From assembly GCA_016185545.1 (NCBI GenBank), contig JACPNJ010000005.1, positions 4,549 through 68,548 on the forward strand: DNA of 64,000 bases, in the 5' to 3' direction. A model generated the notes under the pieces. It did no database searches. It saw only the letters and a list, made by a program, of their open reading frames with translations, and had not been told where the DNA came from. The translations under genes and the position numbers were made by a program. Source of the stretch: Candidatus Yanofskybacteria bacterium (lineage in GTDB: Bacteria > Patescibacteriota > Minisyncoccia > 2-02-FULL-40-12 > IGHO2-01-FULL-4-A). Below, in pieces: positions 37,907 to 50,093 of this stretch; the first letter of the stretch is position 1; each line of letters starts with the position of its first letter.

Positions 37907-38494
37907 TTGAAAATATCCGGGGCTATTATGAACTTTGATAACTTATCTAGTGAGGAATTAAAAAAATTACTCACCATGGGTCGAACATCCGGTAAAAGAA
38001 TGGCTTTTGAATTTTGGCTCAAGCACATAGAACTAATCGCTCCCAGGGAAACTGGCATAGGCAAAGACCAGCAGCATTACACGGCAAGATTCTTAACACG
38101 GTTTTCTCTGGTTTCAACCACACATTCAATGTTCCACTTTCCTACTTTCATGAGTTTGGCGCAAATTTATGACGAATTCGTGCAGGATATTGAAAACCAG
38201 TATTCACCGGAACCCATGGAAATAGCCGGTTACCAAACTTTACTGCTTGGCGGGTTTTATCTGAAAGCCGCAAGTAAACATTACAACATGGAAGACATAC
38301 GAAAAATGGGCGAATTATTTTTCACCCGCGGAGCAATCGGCAAAAGAAAATCCGTAATCAAAAAAATGGCTCATAATTTTAGCCGATGGCAAAATACGCT
38401 TTGTTATCTTGAATGGTATTTAAGAAATGAAAGATTAGTCATTCAAAAAGCAGAAAAACCCGACGAGCCCCTCATCAAAATCATCCCCCGCTAG
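37907..38494 (+). CDS. hypothetical protein adjacent to the DGR
   Basis: ORF only; its stop overlaps the RT stop by 4 bp (convergent). Confidence 0.35.
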   Translation: MKISGAIMNFDNLSSEELKKLLTMGRTSGKRMAFEFWLKHIELIAPRETGIGKDQQHYTARFLTRFSLVSTTHSMFHFPTFMSLAQIYDEFVQDIENQYSPEPMEIAGYQTLLLGGFYLKAASKHYNMEDIRKMGELFFTRGAIGKRKSVIKKMAHNFSRWQNTLCYLEWYLRNERLVIQKAEKPDEPLIKIIPR

Positions 38495-39501
38495 GGGGAT
38501 TTATATTTTAAAATTTCGGCTTTTAGTTCGTTGGAATTTCCGTGGCTCAAAAGGCCTAGATACGATTCTATTGCCGCAATGTCAGGATTTGATTTAAGTT
38601 TTTTTAACATTCTTCTCTTTGTTGTTGTTCTCAATATTCTGTGGTCTGGAAAATTCACCCACCCCAGAAAATCAACACCCGAATTAATGGTTTTTATGAA
38701 AATTTTACCGGGATGTAATTCTAGTTTAAGATTTTCGGATAAAAAAATCTGAATAGGGTTGATTATACCTTTAAGCCAGGCTTTGTAGGGTGAAATTATT
38801 ACAAAGTCGTCTGAATATCTGACATAGTATTTAGCCTTGAGTTTGTGCTTAACAAACTGGTCAAACTTGTTCATATAGATATTTACGAAAAGCTGTGATG
38901 TTAAGTTACCAAGCGGCAAGCCAACGCCTATTTTCTTGGACGAGAAACTTTTAATGATTTGGTTAAGAAGCCACAAAATATCCTTGTCCGGTATGTTCTC
39001 AACCAAAATTTTTTTCAGTACTTCATGGTCAATATTTTTAAAGAATTTCTTGATATCACACTTTAATATCCAACAAGTGCGAGTATTGTTTTTATTGGCT
39101 TTGTGGGCAAAACTCCTGAAACGGTTTATTGCTTTATGAGTTCCTTTGCCGACTCTGCACGAGAATGAATCGGGAATAAACACTCGGTCAAGGAACGGAC
39201 AAAGTTGCCTACAGACGGCATGGTGAATCAAACGGTCCCTTACTGGCGATTTGTGTATTTGCCTTGGTTTGGGGTCATTGATACGAAAAGATTGATATTT
39301 GCCGTGCTTATAAGTTTTGCCCATCAATTCATGGTGAAGTTCGATAATATTGTCCATCAAATTCATACTGAATTTTTGGACATCTTTCTTTTTGCGCTTT
39401 CCTTTCAAAAATTCTTGCCAAGAATGAAGCAGATTGTCTATACTTACAACATCGTAAAAACAAACACAAAAACCACCTTTATGCCCCCCCCCCAACAACA
39501 A
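38491..39501 (-). CDS. diversity-generating retroelement reverse transcriptase
   Basis: N-terminal IDNLLHSWQEFLKGKRKKKDV, SFSCRVGKGTHKAINR, DGR-specific GLPLGNLTSQLFVNIYMN, YVRYSDDFVI (YxDD). The start is ambiguous: TTG in the given frame, or an ATG if the G-tract is 9 long. Confidence 0.85.
   Translation of the reverse strand: MLLGGGHKGGFCVCFYDVVSIDNLLHSWQEFLKGKRKKKDVQKFSMNLMDNIIELHHELMGKTYKHGKYQSFRINDPKPRQIHKSPVRDRLIHHAVCRQLCPFLDRVFIPDSFSCRVGKGTHKAINRFRSFAHKANKNNTRTCWILKCDIKKFFKNIDHEVLKKILVENIPDKDILWLLNQIIKSFSSKKIGVGLPLGNLTSQLFVNIYMNKFDQFVKHKLKAKYYVRYSDDFVIISPYKAWLKGIINPIQIFLSENLKLELHPGKIFIKTINSGVDFLGWVNFPDHRILRTTTKRRMLKKLKSNPDIAAIESYLGLLSHGNSNELKAEILKYKSP
39484..39493. repeat. C10 (+ strand) / G10 homopolymer at the overlapping 5' ends of RT and avd
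   Basis: Read directly from the sequence. A 9-nt tract would give avd an ATG start at 39481 and RT an ATG start at 39517. Confidence 0.9.
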
Positions 39502-39502
39502 T

Positions 39503-39850
39503 TTGTCGATTATTCATGGTTTTATTGAATTATACAAAGTCTGGCAAAAAATATTTCCCCACTTTCCGACCACCTCCAGACACACGCTCGGATACAGAAT
39601 AGATAATCTTCTCGTGGAAATAGCTGAATTATTGTTTCTGGCGCAATTTGCAACCGGCAATCTTAAGTTATCTCTGGTTGAAAAAACATCACAGAAACTA
39701 GATACGATAAAATTCCTGTTAAGGTTGGCTTGGGAAGTTGAATCTATGGAAGAAAAGAAATATATAATTTTGTCTGAATATCTGCAAAACATTGGGAAAC
39801 AACTTGGCGGTTGGATAAAATATATAAGAAAAGAAAACTCTCCGCGTTGA
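39503..39850 (+). CDS. avd: DGR accessory variability determinant (Avd), four-helix-bundle type
   Basis: C-terminal GKQLGGWIKYIRKEN resembles bAvd ..GRILGSWIARVNRK; IKFLLRLAWEVE resembles bAvd LRFWLRFLA; 115 aa. It lies on the strand opposite to RT, TR and the target gene. Confidence 0.7.
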   Translation: MSIIHGFIELYKVWQKIFPHFPTTSRHTLGYRIDNLLVEIAELLFLAQFATGNLKLSLVEKTSQKLDTIKFLLRLAWEVESMEEKKYIILSEYLQNIGKQLGGWIKYIRKENSPR

Positions 39851-39866
39851 GCAGAGAGAAACAGAG

Positions 39867-40007
39867 ATAGTTTCGAGGCAGAACGAACACGAAGCGATAG
39901 TCAGAATCAAAGACGTTGTCGGGATTGCCGTAATACGCGTTCAACCAAGGTTCGCCATCGTTACGATTCACATCGAACACGTTCAGGTTGCCGTCGGAGT
40001 CAGTAAT
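39867..40007 (-). repeat. DGR template repeat (TR), template strand minus
   Basis: Aligns to 40261-40401 at an offset of 394 bp. All 16-17 mismatches are T on the + strand, which is A on the TR coding strand; there are no other mismatches in 133 bp. Confidence 0.85.
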
Positions 40008-40197
40008 GTATGGCATACCGTCTATACCACCACCCCTTGAGTTTTCTCAGGGTTGAATCTAATTTGATATCTAAATCATACCCTAGTACACCACACCAAG
40101 TATGTCTGTTTTTTTTTGAGGCCGCTCAAAGCCTTCTAATTTTGACCGTGAGCATGTCGCCGTATCTATAATATAACTTATTTCCGAAATAAAAAAG

Positions 40198-40230
40198 GGT
40201 CAGTCAATGATAAAAATATTGACCGACCCA
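40198..40230 (-). terminator. hairpin plus U-run downstream of the VR/target gene
   Basis: Minus strand: gggtcggtcaat..attgactgaccc followed by ttttttatttcgg. Confidence 0.5.
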
Positions 40231-40260
40231 GAAACCAAGCAACAAGAATCTGAGAGATCC

Positions 40261-40401
40261 TTACTTGCGAGGCAGAACGAACACGAAGCGATAGACAGAA
40301 ACAAAGACGCTGTCGGGACAGCCGCAAAACGCGCCCAACCAAGGTTCGCCATCGAAACGATTCACAACGAACACGCGCAGGCTGCCGTCGGAGTCAGTAA
40401 G
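40261..40401 (-). repeat. DGR variable repeat (VR) at the 3' end of the target gene
   Basis: See the TR entry. The TR-encoded peptide has Asn (AAY) where the VR peptide has S/R/F/G/C/K, and TR Asp/Tyr codons also vary. Confidence 0.85.
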
Positions 40402-40914
40402 TGGCTCCATGGCAACTACGAGACACTCTCCATCGGGCTGATCCTTGTACTGATCGCGCAGTGCCGGACCAACTTCGTTTGGACAGAGTTGACCGCCGAC
40501 CTCAACTATCCTGGCACAGATGTCATCATACCGGGTACTCTTCTTGAAACCGAGTTCAGCAACCGACATGACACACAAATCCACTTCAATCTCTGCCTGC
40601 GAGATGGAGATTTTGTGGAGAATCTGCTGTGCCCAATCACCGATTCGGGTAGTACCTCCACGCTTCAGGGCACTCGCGTAAGCCTTCGGGGTCTTGTGAA
40701 GGCCCAGTCTGATGGTCCCCCAAACCTTCAGCACTGGCAAAAGCCCAAGAAACTTCTGGAAGACATCTCTGACAGGCAAAGTATTTGACTTGATTGCCCG
40801 AGCCAGGTCTGATAGATACCCGCTGTGCAGTGTGTTCATCTCCTCACCGGAGAGCTTCTGCTGATCCAGCAGATTAAGTGTCTGCTGGGCATGACCAAAA
40901 GTTGCATTGCTCAT
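40261..40914 (-). CDS. DGR target protein (217 aa) with C-terminal variable region
   Basis: AGGAGG RBS; GC content higher than its surroundings; C-terminus ..DGEPWLGAFCGCPDSVFVSVYRFVFVLPRK is VR-encoded; no signal peptide. Confidence 0.8.
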   Translation of the reverse strand: MSNATFGHAQQTLNLLDQQKLSGEEMNTLHSGYLSDLARAIKSNTLPVRDVFQKFLGLLPVLKVWGTIRLGLHKTPKAYASALKRGGTTRIGDWAQQILHKISISQAEIEVDLCVMSVAELGFKKSTRYDDICARIVEVGGQLCPNEVGPALRDQYKDQPDGECLVVAMEPLTDSDGSLRVFVVNRFDGEPWLGAFCGCPDSVFVSVYRFVFVLPRK

Positions 40915-41118
40915 AGTTTCCTCCTATTGAGCGCTATTCCCTTGCGGGATAGCAGAAATTGGCTGCCTGATTGCAGCCCCCAAACTCTTAAATAGATTCG
41001 GGATTGGGGGCTACAATCAGTAAAAATGACATTCAAAAAAACCTTTTATACCTTAATTATACACCCAAAAGCACAGAAAAGTCAATAGCACGAAAAACCT
41101 TGAAAAATAGGGTTAAGT

Positions 41119-48677: not shown

Positions 48678-50093
48678 ATGAATCTTATGAAAAAACATAT
48701 ACTGTTGATTATAATTATTGTTGCCAGTTTGGCAACGCATTTTTTGTTTTTCGGACAGCCGCGTGAAACGGTTTTTGATGAAGTACATTTCGGTAAATTC
48801 ATTTCGGGATATTTTACTCATGAGTATTTTTTTGACATTCATCCGCCGCTTGGCAAATTGATAATCTCCGGCATGGGTTATGCTGCTGATTTTGAACCGG
48901 GTTTTAATTTCGCCGAAATCGGCCAAAAATTCCCTGATAACGCATATATGTGGTTGCGGCTCTTGCCGACAATCGCCGGCACGCTTCTGCCAATTGTTAT
49001 TTATTTTTTAATTCTTGAATTAGGCATGTCGCGCCTAGCGGCATTCGCCGGCGGAATGCTAGTTATCCTTGAAAATGCTCTTTTGGTCCAATCACGTATT
49101 ATTTTACTTGACTCATTTTTGCTTTTATTCGGCTTTTTAGCTTTTCTTTTTTATCTTCTTCACCGTCATATTGCACGACATCGCATGTCGTGCAATTGGG
49201 TATATTTGCTTTTAAGCGGGATTTTTGGCGCATTGGCGGTTTCAGTCAAATGGACTGGCGCCACATTCTTAGCAATTATCGTAATCTTATACTTCATTGA
49301 TTTGCTTAAATCACAACAAAAACTCAAGGTCATGGTACGAGATTTAGGTTTTCTTGTTATTTTGCCGCTTATCATCTATTTTTCCGTTTTCGCTTTGCAT
49401 TTTTCTCTTTTATCAAAATCCGGTCCCGGTGATGCCTTTATGAGTCCCGAGTTCCGCAAAACCCTTGTTGGCAGTGCTGACAGCGCCAATGCTGATTTGA
49501 GACCACTCAATGTTTTCCAGAAATTCAACGAGTTAAATCTTCAAATGTATAAATCAAATGCCACGTTAACAGCCGGCCATCCCTATTCCAGCAAATGGTA
49601 CACCTGGCCATTTATGATTAGGCCGATATATTATTGGAACGATTCTGCAAGCGAGCAGCAGTCACGCATATATTTTTTAGGTAATCCGGTTATCTGGTGG
49701 ATATCAACAGCGGCTATATTTTATTTGCTCTTAAACGCCGCGTATTCAATATTTCGACTTGCGATTTTGAAAGTATTAAAAAAATTCCATGATTTTTCGA
49801 ATTACAAGATTAAGACATTATCGGTCTTGCTAGTCGGAGTATATCTGTTTAATCTTTTGCCATTCATCAGTATCAAACGAGCCATGTTTTTATATCACTA
49901 TATGGTTGGTTTGATTTTTGCCATAATCACTTTGGTTTATCTGATAGATCAAACTAAAAATAAAAAAAGGATCTTTATGATCCTTTTGGCTGCAAGTTTT
50001 GCCGCATTTATTTTTTTCGCCCCTCTTTCTTACGGCCTACCGCTTACTGAAAGAGCTTACAATTTCCGTGTCTGGTTACCAACCTGGTTATAA
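48678..50093 (+). CDS. GT39/PMT-like dolichyl-phosphate-mannose protein mannosyltransferase family membrane protein
   Basis: TVFDEVHFGKF..HPPLGK loop-1 motif; polytopic. Confidence 0.7.
   Translation: MNLMKKHILLIIIIVASLATHFLFFGQPRETVFDEVHFGKFISGYFTHEYFFDIHPPLGKLIISGMGYAADFEPGFNFAEIGQKFPDNAYMWLRLLPTIAGTLLPIVIYFLILELGMSRLAAFAGGMLVILENALLVQSRIILLDSFLLLFGFLAFLFYLLHRHIARHRMSCNWVYLLLSGIFGALAVSVKWTGATFLAIIVILYFIDLLKSQQKLKVMVRDLGFLVILPLIIYFSVFALHFSLLSKSGPGDAFMSPEFRKTLVGSADSANADLRPLNVFQKFNELNLQMYKSNATLTAGHPYSSKWYTWPFMIRPIYYWNDSASEQQSRIYFLGNPVIWWISTAAIFYLLLNAAYSIFRLAILKVLKKFHDFSNYKIKTLSVLLVGVYLFNLLPFISIKRAMFLYHYMVGLIFAIITLVYLIDQTKNKKRIFMILLAASFAAFIFFAPLSYGLPLTERAYNFRVWLPTWL

What the first reader, a model, noticed from the sequence alone, without database searches (positions are those of the whole stretch)
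39478..39520. A C10/G10 homopolymer sits exactly at the overlapping divergent 5' ends of the DGR RT and avd; a 9-mer tract would give both genes ATG starts
As given, both ORFs need TTG starts within 2 bp of each other (RT TTG at 39501 on the minus strand, avd TTG at 39503 on the plus strand). If the C-tract 39484-39493 were 9 nt, avd would read from the 39481 ATG as MPPPNNNLSIIHGF.., and RT would read from the 39517 ATG (minus) as MNNRQIVVGGGHKGGF... Both genes cross the tract, so one indel toggles both frames together. This is either a homopolymer assembly error or a slipped-strand phase-variation switch that co-regulates the two DGR enzymes.
Basis: seen in the sequence. Interest (0 to 1): 0.8.

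Follow-up and report, generated by a model that had tools for sequence, protein, structure and literature searches.

The report
Slippery C/G run gating DGR enzymes
A run of ten C's sits inside the overlapping starts of the two enzymes (reverse transcriptase and Avd) of a protein-diversifying retroelement, and most related elements in CPR bacteria carry such a slippage-prone repeat at the same spot, so this mutagenesis machine is probably turned up and down by chance changes in repeat length.

Summary
C10 at 39484-39493 is the only G/C run of 7 or more in 64 kb. It lies between divergent avd (+) and RT (-) of a real DGR whose TR and VR differ at 16 template adenines. With 9 or 12 bases both genes start at ATG. 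With 10, as given, only TTG starts remain. With 8 or 11 the RT has no start codon.

An independent assembly of the same strain (L001, 1579 bp, no other difference) has C9.

The tract is a family feature. Of 80 related loci from CPR genomes, 63 carry poly-G (6-14) at this avd-RT junction. Seven carry other repeats there: (GA)n, (CT)n, (CTGG)n, (TTGG)n. Repeat units are 1, 2 or 4 nt, never 3 or 6. G/C runs of 8 or more are almost absent elsewhere in these loci (63 at the junction, 3 elsewhere in 412 kb). A second species shows G8 versus G9 as the only indel in 3 kb.

Best reading: a slipped-strand contingency locus that sets Avd and RT translation, and so DGR activity.

Not shown: read-level heterogeneity, or which lengths are ON. 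Consensus lengths are mostly stable within species, are not enriched for the ATG phase, and one "OFF"-consensus population still diversifies its VR.

I found no paper describing this.

The parts
39484..39493 (.). C10 (+) / G10 (-) homopolymer. The candidate hypermutable repeat shared by the 5' ends of avd and RT.
   Evidence: the only G/C run of 7 or more in the window. C9 in the otherwise identical contig L001; a homologous tract in 63 of 80 related loci.
38491..39501 (-). DGR reverse transcriptase ORF as given (TTG start at 39501, 336 aa). Its first codons (TTG TTG TTG GGG GGG GGG) run through the tract.
   Evidence: (RVT_1, E=1.8e-22).
39515..39517 (-). ATG that becomes the RT start when the tract is 9 or 12 nt (MNNRQIVVGGGHK...). 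With 10 nt it opens a 12-codon ORF that ends at TAA 39481..39479, just past the tract.
   Evidence: sequence.
39503..39850 (+). avd (bAvd-like four-helix-bundle accessory protein) as given, TTG start, 115 aa.
   Evidence: PF22296, E=4e-12. Identical to P0125, annotated 'four helix bundle protein, Candidatus Yanofskybacteria'.
39481..39483 (+). ATG that becomes the avd start when the tract is 9 or 12 nt (MPPPNNNLSII...). With 10 nt it opens a 15-codon ORF that ends at TGA 39526-39528.
39529..39534 (-). Perfect TATAAT on the RT strand, 11 nt upstream of ATG 39517 and inside the avd coding sequence (antisense). Candidate -10 box of a near-leaderless RT mRNA. This is an inference.
   Evidence: Sequence; many genes in this window have a TATAAT-like box about 7-9 nt before the ATG, and few have a Shine-Dalgarno motif.
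39415..39444 (+). Promoter-like site TTGCCA-18-TATACT (10 of 12 matches), inside the RT 5' coding region (antisense). Candidate avd promoter. This is an inference.
39868..40006 (-). Template repeat (TR) of the DGR.
   Evidence: a 139-nt repeat; 16 of 17 mismatches to the VR lie at TR adenines.
40262..40400 (-). Variable repeat (VR) at the 3' end of the target gene.
40261..40914 (-). DGR target gene (217 aa, no Pfam hit), preceded by a strong AGGAGG Shine-Dalgarno motif.
39838..39858 (-). Terminator-like hairpin plus T-run directly after the TR on the - strand. It suggests the TR RNA and the RT mRNA are separate transcripts.

Best explanation
The C10/G10 run is a contingency locus. It is a hypermutable simple-sequence repeat embedded in the head-to-head, overlapping 5' coding ends of avd and the DGR reverse transcriptase. 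Slipped-strand mispairing during replication changes its length, and each one-base change shifts the frame of both genes relative to their ATG codons.

In this strain:
- n = 0 mod 3 (9, 12): ATG-initiated RT and Avd, full ON.
- n = 1 mod 3 (10, as assembled): only SD-less TTG starts remain, and ribosomes starting at the two ATGs make 12- and 15-codon peptides. Expression is low or leaky.
- n = 2 mod 3 (8, 11): no RT start at all, OFF.

In the studied Bordetella phage system, DGR cDNA synthesis needs the RT-Avd complex (established knowledge). The tract would therefore set the rate of adenine mutagenesis of the target gene's VR in each lineage. It would act as a stochastic, heritable, reversible gate on a hypermutation machine.

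Shown:
- the tract, the frames and the DGR itself;
- a 9/10 difference between otherwise identical assemblies;
- family-wide conservation of a repeat at this junction, but not of its length or motif.

Inferred:
- that length changes happen at high frequency in cells;
- which phases are ON;
- that TTG initiation is weak;
- the promoters.

In most relatives the RT has its own ATG downstream of the tract. There the repeat would gate Avd, whose likely ATG lies antisense to a conserved RT His codon, and perhaps also RT promoter spacing.
For: 1. The tract is non-random. It is the only G/C run of 7 or more in 64 kb.

2. The RT must be translated through it, because no start codon lies between the tract and the invariant N-terminal residues.

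3. L001 (Logan assembly of SRR12113422) equals window 38473..40052 with 0 mismatches and one gap. The gap is the tract: C9 versus C10.

4. Of 80 species-level relatives (56-68% aa identity, CPR/Patescibacteria MAGs):
- 78 of 85 loci analysed have avd divergent and adjacent to the RT;
- 63 have poly-G of 6-14, lying 5-17 nt from the avd N-terminal codons in almost all loci and 19-82 nt upstream of the RT core;
- 7 have (GA)n, (AG)n, (CT)n, (CTGG)10 or (TTGG)10 at the same place;
- repeat units are 1, 2 or 4 nt only, never 3 or 6;
- lengths show no mod-3 preference (23/21/17);
- some loci that lack a repeat carry interrupted remnants such as aggggaggag.

5. Specificity: in 412 kb of these loci, 63 G/C runs of 8 or more lie at the junction and 3 elsewhere.

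6. A second within-species polymorphism: L087 has G8 (RT in frame from ATG, MIEIRCGGGIIGK...), while nine other contigs have G9. It is the only indel in 3,048 bp.

7. Several scaffolds have N-gaps, or contig ends, exactly at the tract (L008, L057, L073, L014, L074).

8. Evidence that avd is read through the tract in the family:
- The RT His(-2) codon is CAT in 59 of 61 loci, against 57% CAT in the RT bodies. CAT is ATG on the avd strand.
- The avd-strand frame from that ATG to the tract is open in 44 of 44 loci, against 61% of control antisense windows.
- At the avd 'Leu' position many species have non-start codons (TTA, CTA, CTT).
- NCBI and PGAP models with M...PPP...LPII N-termini exist (P0129; L097).

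9. This genome rarely uses Shine-Dalgarno motifs and often has TATAAT about 7 nt before the ATG. That favours ATG-dependent, leaderless-like initiation.

10. Outgroups lack the repeat: 1 of 7 IMG/VR relatives at 47-58% identity has it, and 0 of 21 distant DGR RTs do.
Against: - Consensus tract lengths are mostly stable within species: G10 x6, G9 x3, G10 x6, G9 x4 and C7A8 x5. Only 2 of about 37 contigs differ.
- A single-base homopolymer difference between assemblies can be a technical error.
- The actual tract phase is not enriched for the ATG-ON phase. For avd the counts are 25/25/29 at actual length, +1 and +2. For RTs without a downstream ATG they are 5/8/8.
- The 80%-identical relative keeps the same TTG/TTG phase in five assemblies, and its VR carries 20 A-to-N changes.
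- A population with consensus G9 (no ATG for either gene) shows different VR variants between samples, with an identical TR. The "OFF" phases are therefore leaky, or ON cells are a recurrent minority.
- The CAT bias has a near-equal control site (GAA at 0.93).
- The coincidence of RT-ON and avd-ON phases follows from the codon-aligned antisense register, so it is not independent evidence.
Confidence: 0.65

Rival explanations
1. Assembly or sequencing error. The real tract in this strain is a fixed C9. Both genes simply have ATG starts and overlapping 5' ends, and the window (like the deposited MAG) carries a one-base homopolymer error.
For: - L001, identical elsewhere, has C9.
- With C10 the annotation pipelines produced truncated or TTG-started models: P0121 is 305 aa and P0001 is 291 aa.
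- Homopolymers are error-prone in Illumina assemblies.
Against: - The 80% relative has the same non-ATG phase in five independent assemblies. That phase is therefore not merely an error product.
- Family-wide lengths fall in all three phases equally.
- This rival explains the single base. It does not explain why a repeat of variable motif and length is kept at this junction in about 70 of 80 species.
Confidence: 0.15
2. The DNA tract has a fixed length, and expression is rescued downstream of the DNA. The RT and Avd are made from the TTG codons, or RNA polymerase slippage or ribosomal frameshifting on the G/C run produces in-frame products. On this reading the tract is a constant rheostat, not a heritable switch.
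For: - Consensus lengths are stable within five species or lineages.
- VR diversification goes on in a population whose consensus phase lacks ATG starts.
- TTG is over-represented at the avd Leu position: 26 of 51 Leu codons, against 22% expected.
Against: - Two within-strain length variants exist at the DNA level.
- Non-start codons (TTA, CTA, CTT, ATT) occupy the avd Leu position in many species.
- With n=8 or 11 the window RT has no start codon of any kind.
- Di- and tetranucleotide repeats at the same site are typical of DNA slippage, not of programmed frameshift sites.
Confidence: 0.12
3. Transcriptional element. The tract is part of the RT or avd promoter region, for example the spacer just upstream of a -10 box. 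It would tune transcription by spacing, as in Neisseria porA/opc or H. influenzae hifA/hifB, rather than by reading frame.
For: - In a subclade of 14 relatives the tract is followed directly by TAnnnT, then 7 nt, then the RT ATG. Thirteen of the 14 fit this pattern.
- This looks like a -10 box of a leaderless mRNA with the tract in its spacer.
- The implied -35-to-(-10) spacings centre on 16-18 nt. This is my by-eye reading.
Against: - In the window no -35/-10 pair brackets the tract, and the hexamer after it is CATAAA.
- Repeats of 20-40 nt, such as (GA)10-16, (CTGG)10 and (TTGG)10, cannot fit in a 17-nt spacer.
- The absence of 3- and 6-nt units points to a frame effect.
- In the window the RT ORF must cross the tract.
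Confidence: 0.08

Closest known systems
Intragenic poly-G/poly-C contingency loci of Neisseria, Haemophilus, Campylobacter and Helicobacter (SSR-mediated translational phase variation)
   Same: - A G/C homopolymer of 8-14 sits just after the start codon.
- Unit lengths are not divisible by 3.
- The tract is kept at the orthologous site while its length and motif drift.
- Length differs between near-identical sequences.
- Such runs are scarce elsewhere in the genome.
   Different: - The gated genes are not surface or restriction-modification genes. They are the two enzymes of a diversity-generating retroelement.
- The host is an uncultivated CPR bacterium.
- One tract lies in two ORFs on opposite strands.
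- Switching frequency and ON/OFF phenotypes have not been measured.
H. influenzae hifA-hifB (TA)n repeat: a single repeat between divergent genes that co-regulates both
   Same: One simple-sequence repeat placed between two divergently oriented genes changes the expression of both at once.
   Different: There the repeat lies in overlapping promoters and acts through -35/-10 spacing. Here it lies within, or at the edge of, both coding regions and acts (inferred) through reading frame. This comparison rests on my own knowledge and was not tested here.
Bordetella phage BPP-1 DGR (avd-TR-brt), the prototype diversity-generating retroelement
   Same: It has an RT, an Avd accessory protein, a TR/VR pair with adenine-specific substitutions, and a VR at the 3' end of the target gene.
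   Different: - In this CPR clade avd is inverted and lies head-to-head with the RT, with overlapping 5' ends.
- A terminator-like hairpin follows the TR.
- A hypermutable repeat occupies the avd-RT junction.
- To my knowledge no such repeat is described for BPP-1, and I found none in the searchable literature.
Genetic switches that toggle mutator states (for example, repeats or mobile elements that interrupt mutS/mutL)
   Same: A reversible DNA change turns a mutation-generating system on and off within a lineage. This is second-order evolvability.
   Different: Those switches act on genome-wide mismatch repair. Here the gated system is a targeted hypermutator that acts on one variable region. 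The analogy is from my own knowledge and was not tested.

Membership tests
Diversity-generating retroelement (DGR) | Reverse transcriptase of the DGR type | tested here: met
   RVT_1 match, E=1.8e-22. Thousands of CPR homologues, some named retron-type or group II intron RT by their sources.
Diversity-generating retroelement (DGR) | TR/VR near-repeat whose differences are confined to template adenines | tested here: met
   A 139-nt repeat, 40006..39868 versus 40400..40262. Of 17 mismatches, 16 lie at TR adenines.
Diversity-generating retroelement (DGR) | VR at the 3' end of a target ORF | tested here: met
   The VR ends one base before the end of ORF 40914..40261, which includes the stop codon. 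The fold of the target protein was not examined, and it has no Pfam hit.
Diversity-generating retroelement (DGR) | Avd accessory protein | tested here: met
   bAvd PF22296 match, E=4e-12, residues 15-107.
Diversity-generating retroelement (DGR) | IMH/IMH* elements and the downstream hairpin that direct retrohoming | not tested
   I only noticed a terminator-like hairpin after the TR. No IMH analysis was done.
SSR contingency locus (slipped-strand phase variation) | Repeat tract long enough to be hypermutable, and over-represented relative to base composition | tested here: met
   C10 is the only G/C run of 7 or more in 64 kb, against about 0.016 runs of 10 or more expected. In relatives, 63 runs of 8 or more lie at the junction and 3 elsewhere in 412 kb.
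SSR contingency locus (slipped-strand phase variation) | Tract placed so that a unit change alters expression (within the 5' ORF or the promoter) | tested here: met
   The frame table for n=8-12 shows that the start codons of the RT and avd change with n. There is no RT start downstream of the tract.
SSR contingency locus (slipped-strand phase variation) | Repeat unit not a multiple of three | tested here: met
SSR contingency locus (slipped-strand phase variation) | The repeat is conserved at the orthologous site while its length and motif vary between species | tested here: met
   G6-G14, (GA)n, (CT)n, (CTGG)n and (TTGG)n, with degenerate remnants in some loci that lack a repeat.
SSR contingency locus (slipped-strand phase variation) | Length polymorphism among otherwise identical sequences of one strain | tested here: met
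   Window C10 versus L001 C9. L087 G8 versus nine contigs with G9. This is consensus-level evidence only. Four other species and the window's 80%-identical relative showed no variation.
SSR contingency locus (slipped-strand phase variation) | High-frequency, reversible length changes within a population | not testable with these tools
   This needs raw reads or clonal lineages.
SSR contingency locus (slipped-strand phase variation) | Expression or phenotype switches with tract length | not testable with these tools
   This needs reporters, proteomics or transcriptomics. The indirect data are mixed: the VR diversifies in a population whose consensus phase lacks ATG starts.
Promoter-spacer repeat (porA/opc/hif type) | Tract lies between the -35 and -10 hexamers of a promoter | tested here: inconclusive
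   In the window no promoter-like pair brackets the tract. In a subclade of relatives a TAnnnT box directly follows the tract, 7 nt before the RT ATG (13 of 14 loci). Repeats of 20-40 nt in other relatives cannot be promoter spacers.

The most novel reading that the evidence does not exclude
A large clade of DGRs in CPR/Patescibacteria carries an anciently maintained contingency locus at the head-to-head avd-RT junction. Targeted hypermutation is then itself under stochastic, heritable, multi-state phase control: ATG/ATG full ON, TTG leaky, and no-start OFF in this strain, with Avd-only gating in most relatives. On this reading cells diversify the target protein in bursts and then lock in a variant by slipping the tract out of phase. 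That would give a mechanism for the open question of how DGR activity is restrained after an adaptive variant arises.
Probability: 0.5. Interest if true: 0.85.

Novelty: new variant of a known kind. Interest (0 to 1): 0.8.

Why it matters
Little is known about how DGRs are regulated. Continuous mutagenesis would erase a useful variant as fast as it creates one. A slippage-prone repeat that gates Avd and/or the RT would be a simple, heritable and reversible brake. It would be a switch on a mutator, in organisms (CPR bacteria) where DGRs make up most reverse transcriptases.

The idea is directly testable in existing metagenomes by relating tract phase to VR diversity.

It also has practical consequences. 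Annotation pipelines truncate or mis-start these RT and avd genes; the deposited models here are 305 and 291 aa against a 336-341 aa ORF. Assemblies also break at the tract. DGR surveys may therefore miscount these elements as intact or as degenerate.

Tried and rejected
- **Exact-protein look-ups.** The TTG-started RT and avd of the window are not on record, because gene callers chose other starts. The strain was reached through homologue P0001 instead.

- **"Both genes get ATG in the same phase" as evidence of design.** The phases coincide in 13 of 14 loci where the RT has no start downstream of the tract. I rejected this as independent evidence. In that phase the two ORFs are in codon-aligned antisense register, where stops arise only from TTA, CTA and TCA, so both extensions tend to be open together.

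- **Enrichment of consensus tract lengths for the ATG-ON phase.** There is none: avd 25/25/29, RT 5/8/8.

- **Promoter-spacer reading for the window.** No bracketing -35/-10 pair was found.

- **Known RNA family.** No Rfam hit in 38400-41100 at E of 1 or less.

- **Pattern scan of JGI metagenomes for other tract lengths.** It found only one contig of the 80% relative, again C7A8.

- **Homology search with the extended Avd.** It gave only 4 hits, too few for a survey.

- **CAT-codon bias.** The signal is significant against whole-gene usage, but one neighbouring control site is nearly as biased (0.93). I treat it as supportive only.

- **VR comparison between L002 and L003.** Uninformative: one mismatch in 3.2 kb.

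- **Literature.** No paper was found that links the DGR RT or avd to homopolymers, SSRs or phase variation. Paul et al. 2017 on CPR DGRs (PMC5436926) is not held, so prior mention there cannot be excluded.
Full report
**1. The observation**

Positions 39484-39493 are ten C's on the + strand, directly preceded by ATG at 39481-39483. The window is 41% GC. This is its only G or C homopolymer of 7 or more, and about 0.016 runs of 10 or more are expected from composition.

The longest ORFs on either side are:
- 39501..38491 on the - strand (TTG start, 336 aa), which matches RVT_1 at E=1.8e-22;
- 39503..39850 on the + strand (TTG start, 115 aa), which matches bAvd PF22296 at E=4e-12.

The element is a genuine DGR. 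A 139-nt repeat pairs 40006..39868 (TR, - strand) with 40400..40262 (VR). The VR lies at the 3' end of a 217-aa ORF at 40914..40261. Sixteen of the 17 mismatches are at TR adenines.

The gene order on the - strand is target/VR, TR, inverted avd, RT. A terminator-like hairpin lies directly after the TR, at 39858..39838.

**2. Frame logic in this window**

- With n=9 or 12 the RT reads MNNRQIVVGGGHKGGF... from ATG 39517(-). Avd reads MPPPNNNLSIIHGF... from ATG 39481(+).
- With n=10, as given, the RT frame holds only three tandem TTG codons (39501, 39498, 39495). Avd has only the TTG at 39503. The two ATGs then open short ORFs: 12 codons ending at TAA 39481..39479, and 15 codons ending at TGA 39526-39528.
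- With n=8 or 11 the RT frame has no ATG, GTG or TTG upstream of its conserved core.

The RT cannot start downstream of the tract. The next in-frame candidates are CTG at L24, TTG at L32 and ATG at M46. Any of them would remove residues that are invariant in a 40-sequence alignment (N23, L25, W28, E30). The tract is therefore inside the RT ORF in every phase.

Only 11 of 41 long ORFs in the window have a Shine-Dalgarno-like motif. Several have TATAAT about 7-9 nt before the ATG. This suggests leaderless, ATG-dependent initiation is common in this genome.

A perfect TATAAT lies on the RT strand at 39534..39529, 11 nt before ATG 39517. A TTGCCA-18-TATACT site at 39415-39444 could drive avd. Both promoter assignments are inferences.

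**3. Same strain, other assemblies**

Homologue P0001 led to L001, a 1,579-bp Logan contig from SRR12113422. L001 equals window 38473..40052 with zero mismatches and a single gap. That gap is the tract: C9 instead of C10.

The deposited models that match the window are an RT of 305 aa started at an internal TTG (P0121, MBI2669948.1) and an avd of 115 aa (P0125, MBI2669949.1). Both come from a Candidatus Yanofskybacteria MAG. The annotation pipeline evidently found no good RT start with C10.

A relative with 80% aa and about 87% DNA identity has C7A8 in place of C10 in five assemblies (L002-L004, L085, L086). That is 24 nt instead of 18 between the ATG and TTTG, so the reading frame is the same as in the window. 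Its VR carries 20 A-to-N changes. The TTG/TTG phase is therefore not just an error product. It may support some activity.

**4. The tract is a family feature**

RT homologues are abundant in CPR/Patescibacteria. Many called N-termini contain GGG or GGGG just before the conserved core.

I fetched 80 species-level loci from GTDB genomes, at 56-68% identity, and anchored each on the RT core and on the avd N-terminus. The results:
- In 78 of 85 loci analysed, avd is divergent and directly adjacent to the RT.
- Sixty-three loci carry a poly-G run on the RT strand, G6 to G14, with 60 of them G8 or longer. In almost all loci it lies 5-17 nt from the avd N-terminal codons, and 19-82 nt upstream of the RT core.
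- Seven loci carry a different repeat at the same place: (GA)10 in L006, (AG)16 in L021, (GA)12 in L053, (GA)15 in L084, (CT)10 in L045, (CTGG)10 in L078 and (TTGG)10 in L080.
- Of the eight loci with no repeat, three are cut by contig ends. Some of the others show interrupted remnants, for example aggggaggag in L049 and gcggcggcgggg in L065.
- Two further loci (L070, L073) show only poly-C runs, beside a contig end or a scaffold gap.
- Tract length shows no mod-3 preference (23/21/17).
- In 412 kb of these loci, 63 G/C runs of 8 or more lie at the junction and only 3 elsewhere.
- Several scaffolds have N-gaps, or contig ends, exactly at the tract (L008, L057, L073, L014, L074).

Outgroups mostly lack the repeat. 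Among IMG/VR relatives at 47-58% identity, one of seven has it (L119, G11). None of 21 distant DGR RTs does.

To summarise the pattern: the presence of a repeat is conserved, but its length and motif are not. Its units are never multiples of three, and such repeats are nearly confined to this one site. This is the comparative signature of a contingency locus, rather than of a sequence-specific motif or a conserved Gly/Pro run.

**5. What it gates in the family**

In 50 of 68 loci the RT has an ATG (typically MKIQL...) downstream of the repeat. RT translation there is independent of the repeat.

In 14 loci, including the window's clade, there is no start codon between the repeat and the core. 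In four more the start at that position is a GTG. In those 14 the repeat is inside the RT ORF.

For avd, the codon at the position of the window's TTG is a conserved leucine. It is TTG in 26 loci, ATG in 2, and CTG, TTA, CTT, CTA or others in the rest. TTG is over-represented: 26 of 51 Leu codons, against 22% expected (P=4e-6). It may serve as a weak start. Many species have non-start codons there instead.

Three results point to an avd start upstream of the repeat:
- The conserved RT His two codons before the core is CAT in 59 of 61 loci, against 57% CAT in the RT bodies. CAT is ATG on the avd strand. One control site is almost as biased, at 0.93.
- The avd-strand frame from that ATG to the repeat is open in 44 of 44 loci, against 61% of codon-aligned antisense control windows.
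- Annotated Avd models with M...PPP...LPII N-termini exist (P0129; the 135-aa avd of the complete genome CP066687.1, locus L097).

So in most of the family the repeat probably gates Avd translation. In the window's clade it gates both genes.

In a subclade of 14 loci the tract is followed by TAnnnT, then 7 nt, then the RT ATG (13 of 14 fit). There the tract may additionally sit in the spacer of a leaderless RT promoter.

**6. Within-species variation**

Contigs that carry an identical RT protein allow a direct look at tract length within species:
- a Giovannonibacteria species: G10 in 6 contigs;
- a Jorgensenbacteria species: G9 in 3 contigs;
- two further species: G10 in 6 contigs and G9 in 4 contigs.

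None of these vary. One species does vary. L087 has G8, which puts an ATG-started RT (MIEIRCGGGIIGK...) in frame. Nine other contigs have G9. This is the only indel in 3,048 bp.

Together with the window/L001 pair, that makes two variants in about 37 contigs. In each case the tract is the only indel. Consensus sequences hide minority alleles, so this is a lower bound. It still shows that the majority allele is fairly stable.

**7. Evidence against a simple ON/OFF reading**

- The actual tract phase is not enriched for the ATG phase.
- In the G9 species neither gene has an ATG in phase, and avd has no canonical start at all. Yet the VR differs between samples at TR-adenine positions while the TR is identical.
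- Either ON cells are a recurrent minority whose descendants slip back, or the non-ATG phases are leaky through non-canonical starts or through transcriptional or translational slippage.
- The coincidence that the RT and avd gain ATGs in the same phase (13 of 14 loci) follows from the codon-aligned antisense register. I do not count it as independent evidence.

**8. Conclusion**

The phase-variation reading is the best supported. The tract is most likely a slipped-strand contingency locus in the overlapping 5' ends of avd and the RT. In this strain it would give ATG/ATG (n=9, 12), TTG/TTG (n=10) and no-RT-start (n=8, 11) states. The first and third would be full ON and OFF, and the second low or leaky; none of these levels has been measured.

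I cannot exclude that the particular C10 call is an assembly error for C9. That would not change what the tract is.

The closest known systems are the intragenic poly-G/C contingency loci of Neisseria, Campylobacter and Helicobacter, and the hifA/hifB divergent-gene repeat. What is new is the target: the enzymes of a DGR, across a large CPR clade.

I found no description of this in the searchable literature. The main CPR-DGR paper could not be read.

Noticed in passing
L116:1500-1525: A relative in the window's clade has a compound tract, ATG-C8-G10, on the RT strand. The called RT starts MPPPGGGRRR. This palindromic C-run/G-run junction could be a second adjacent repeat or a mis-join at the homopolymer.
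   Followed up: partly
L069:3404 and L069:5253: Two further G10 runs lie about 1.0 and 2.9 kb downstream of the RT core in this locus. Apart from one G12 beside the scaffold gap in L073, they are the only G/C runs of 8 or more outside the avd-RT junction in 412 kb of related loci. They may be other contingency loci.
   Followed up: no
window 39838-39858 (- strand): A terminator-like hairpin (8 pairs) plus TTTTCTTTTC lies immediately after the TR and overlaps the 3' end of avd on the other strand. It suggests that the TR RNA ends here and that the RT needs its own promoter. It could also act as a bidirectional terminator for avd.
   Followed up: no
window, upstream of ATGs at 48678(+), 47455(-), 36797(+), 35407(+): TATAAT-like boxes lie about 0-9 nt before the start codons, and only 11 of 41 long ORFs have a Shine-Dalgarno-like motif. 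Leaderless mRNAs may be common in this Yanofskybacteria genome.
   Followed up: partly
L088-L094, positions about 550-690 (VR) versus 980-1120 (TR): Seven assemblies of one species share an identical TR but have different VR sequences at TR-adenine positions. This DGR is diversifying between samples, even though the consensus junction tract (G9) leaves neither the RT nor avd with an in-frame ATG.
   Followed up: yes
L008, L057, L073 (N-runs) and L014, L074 (contig ends): Scaffold gaps or contig ends fall exactly at the junction homopolymer in several MAGs. In L073 the gap is flanked by an artefact-like C41 run. The tract breaks assemblies.
   Followed up: partly
window 37907-38494 (+): A 195-aa ORF with no Pfam hit converges on the RT and overlaps its 3' end by 4 nt (38491-38494). 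It is uncharacterised.
   Followed up: no
window 38491-39501 versus proteins P0121 and P0001: Public gene models for this RT are N-terminally truncated (305 aa from an internal TTG, and 291 aa from M46), because no ATG is in frame with C10. The contig with C9 had avd called as 141 aa from a far-upstream ATG. Annotation of these DGRs is unreliable at the junction.
   Followed up: yes
L117, L118, L120 (IMG/VR contigs): Relatives at about 56% identity on contigs classed as viral keep the divergent avd-RT arrangement but have no repeat at the junction. L119 has G11. The repeat may be tied to cellular CPR lineages rather than to phage-borne copies.
   Followed up: partly
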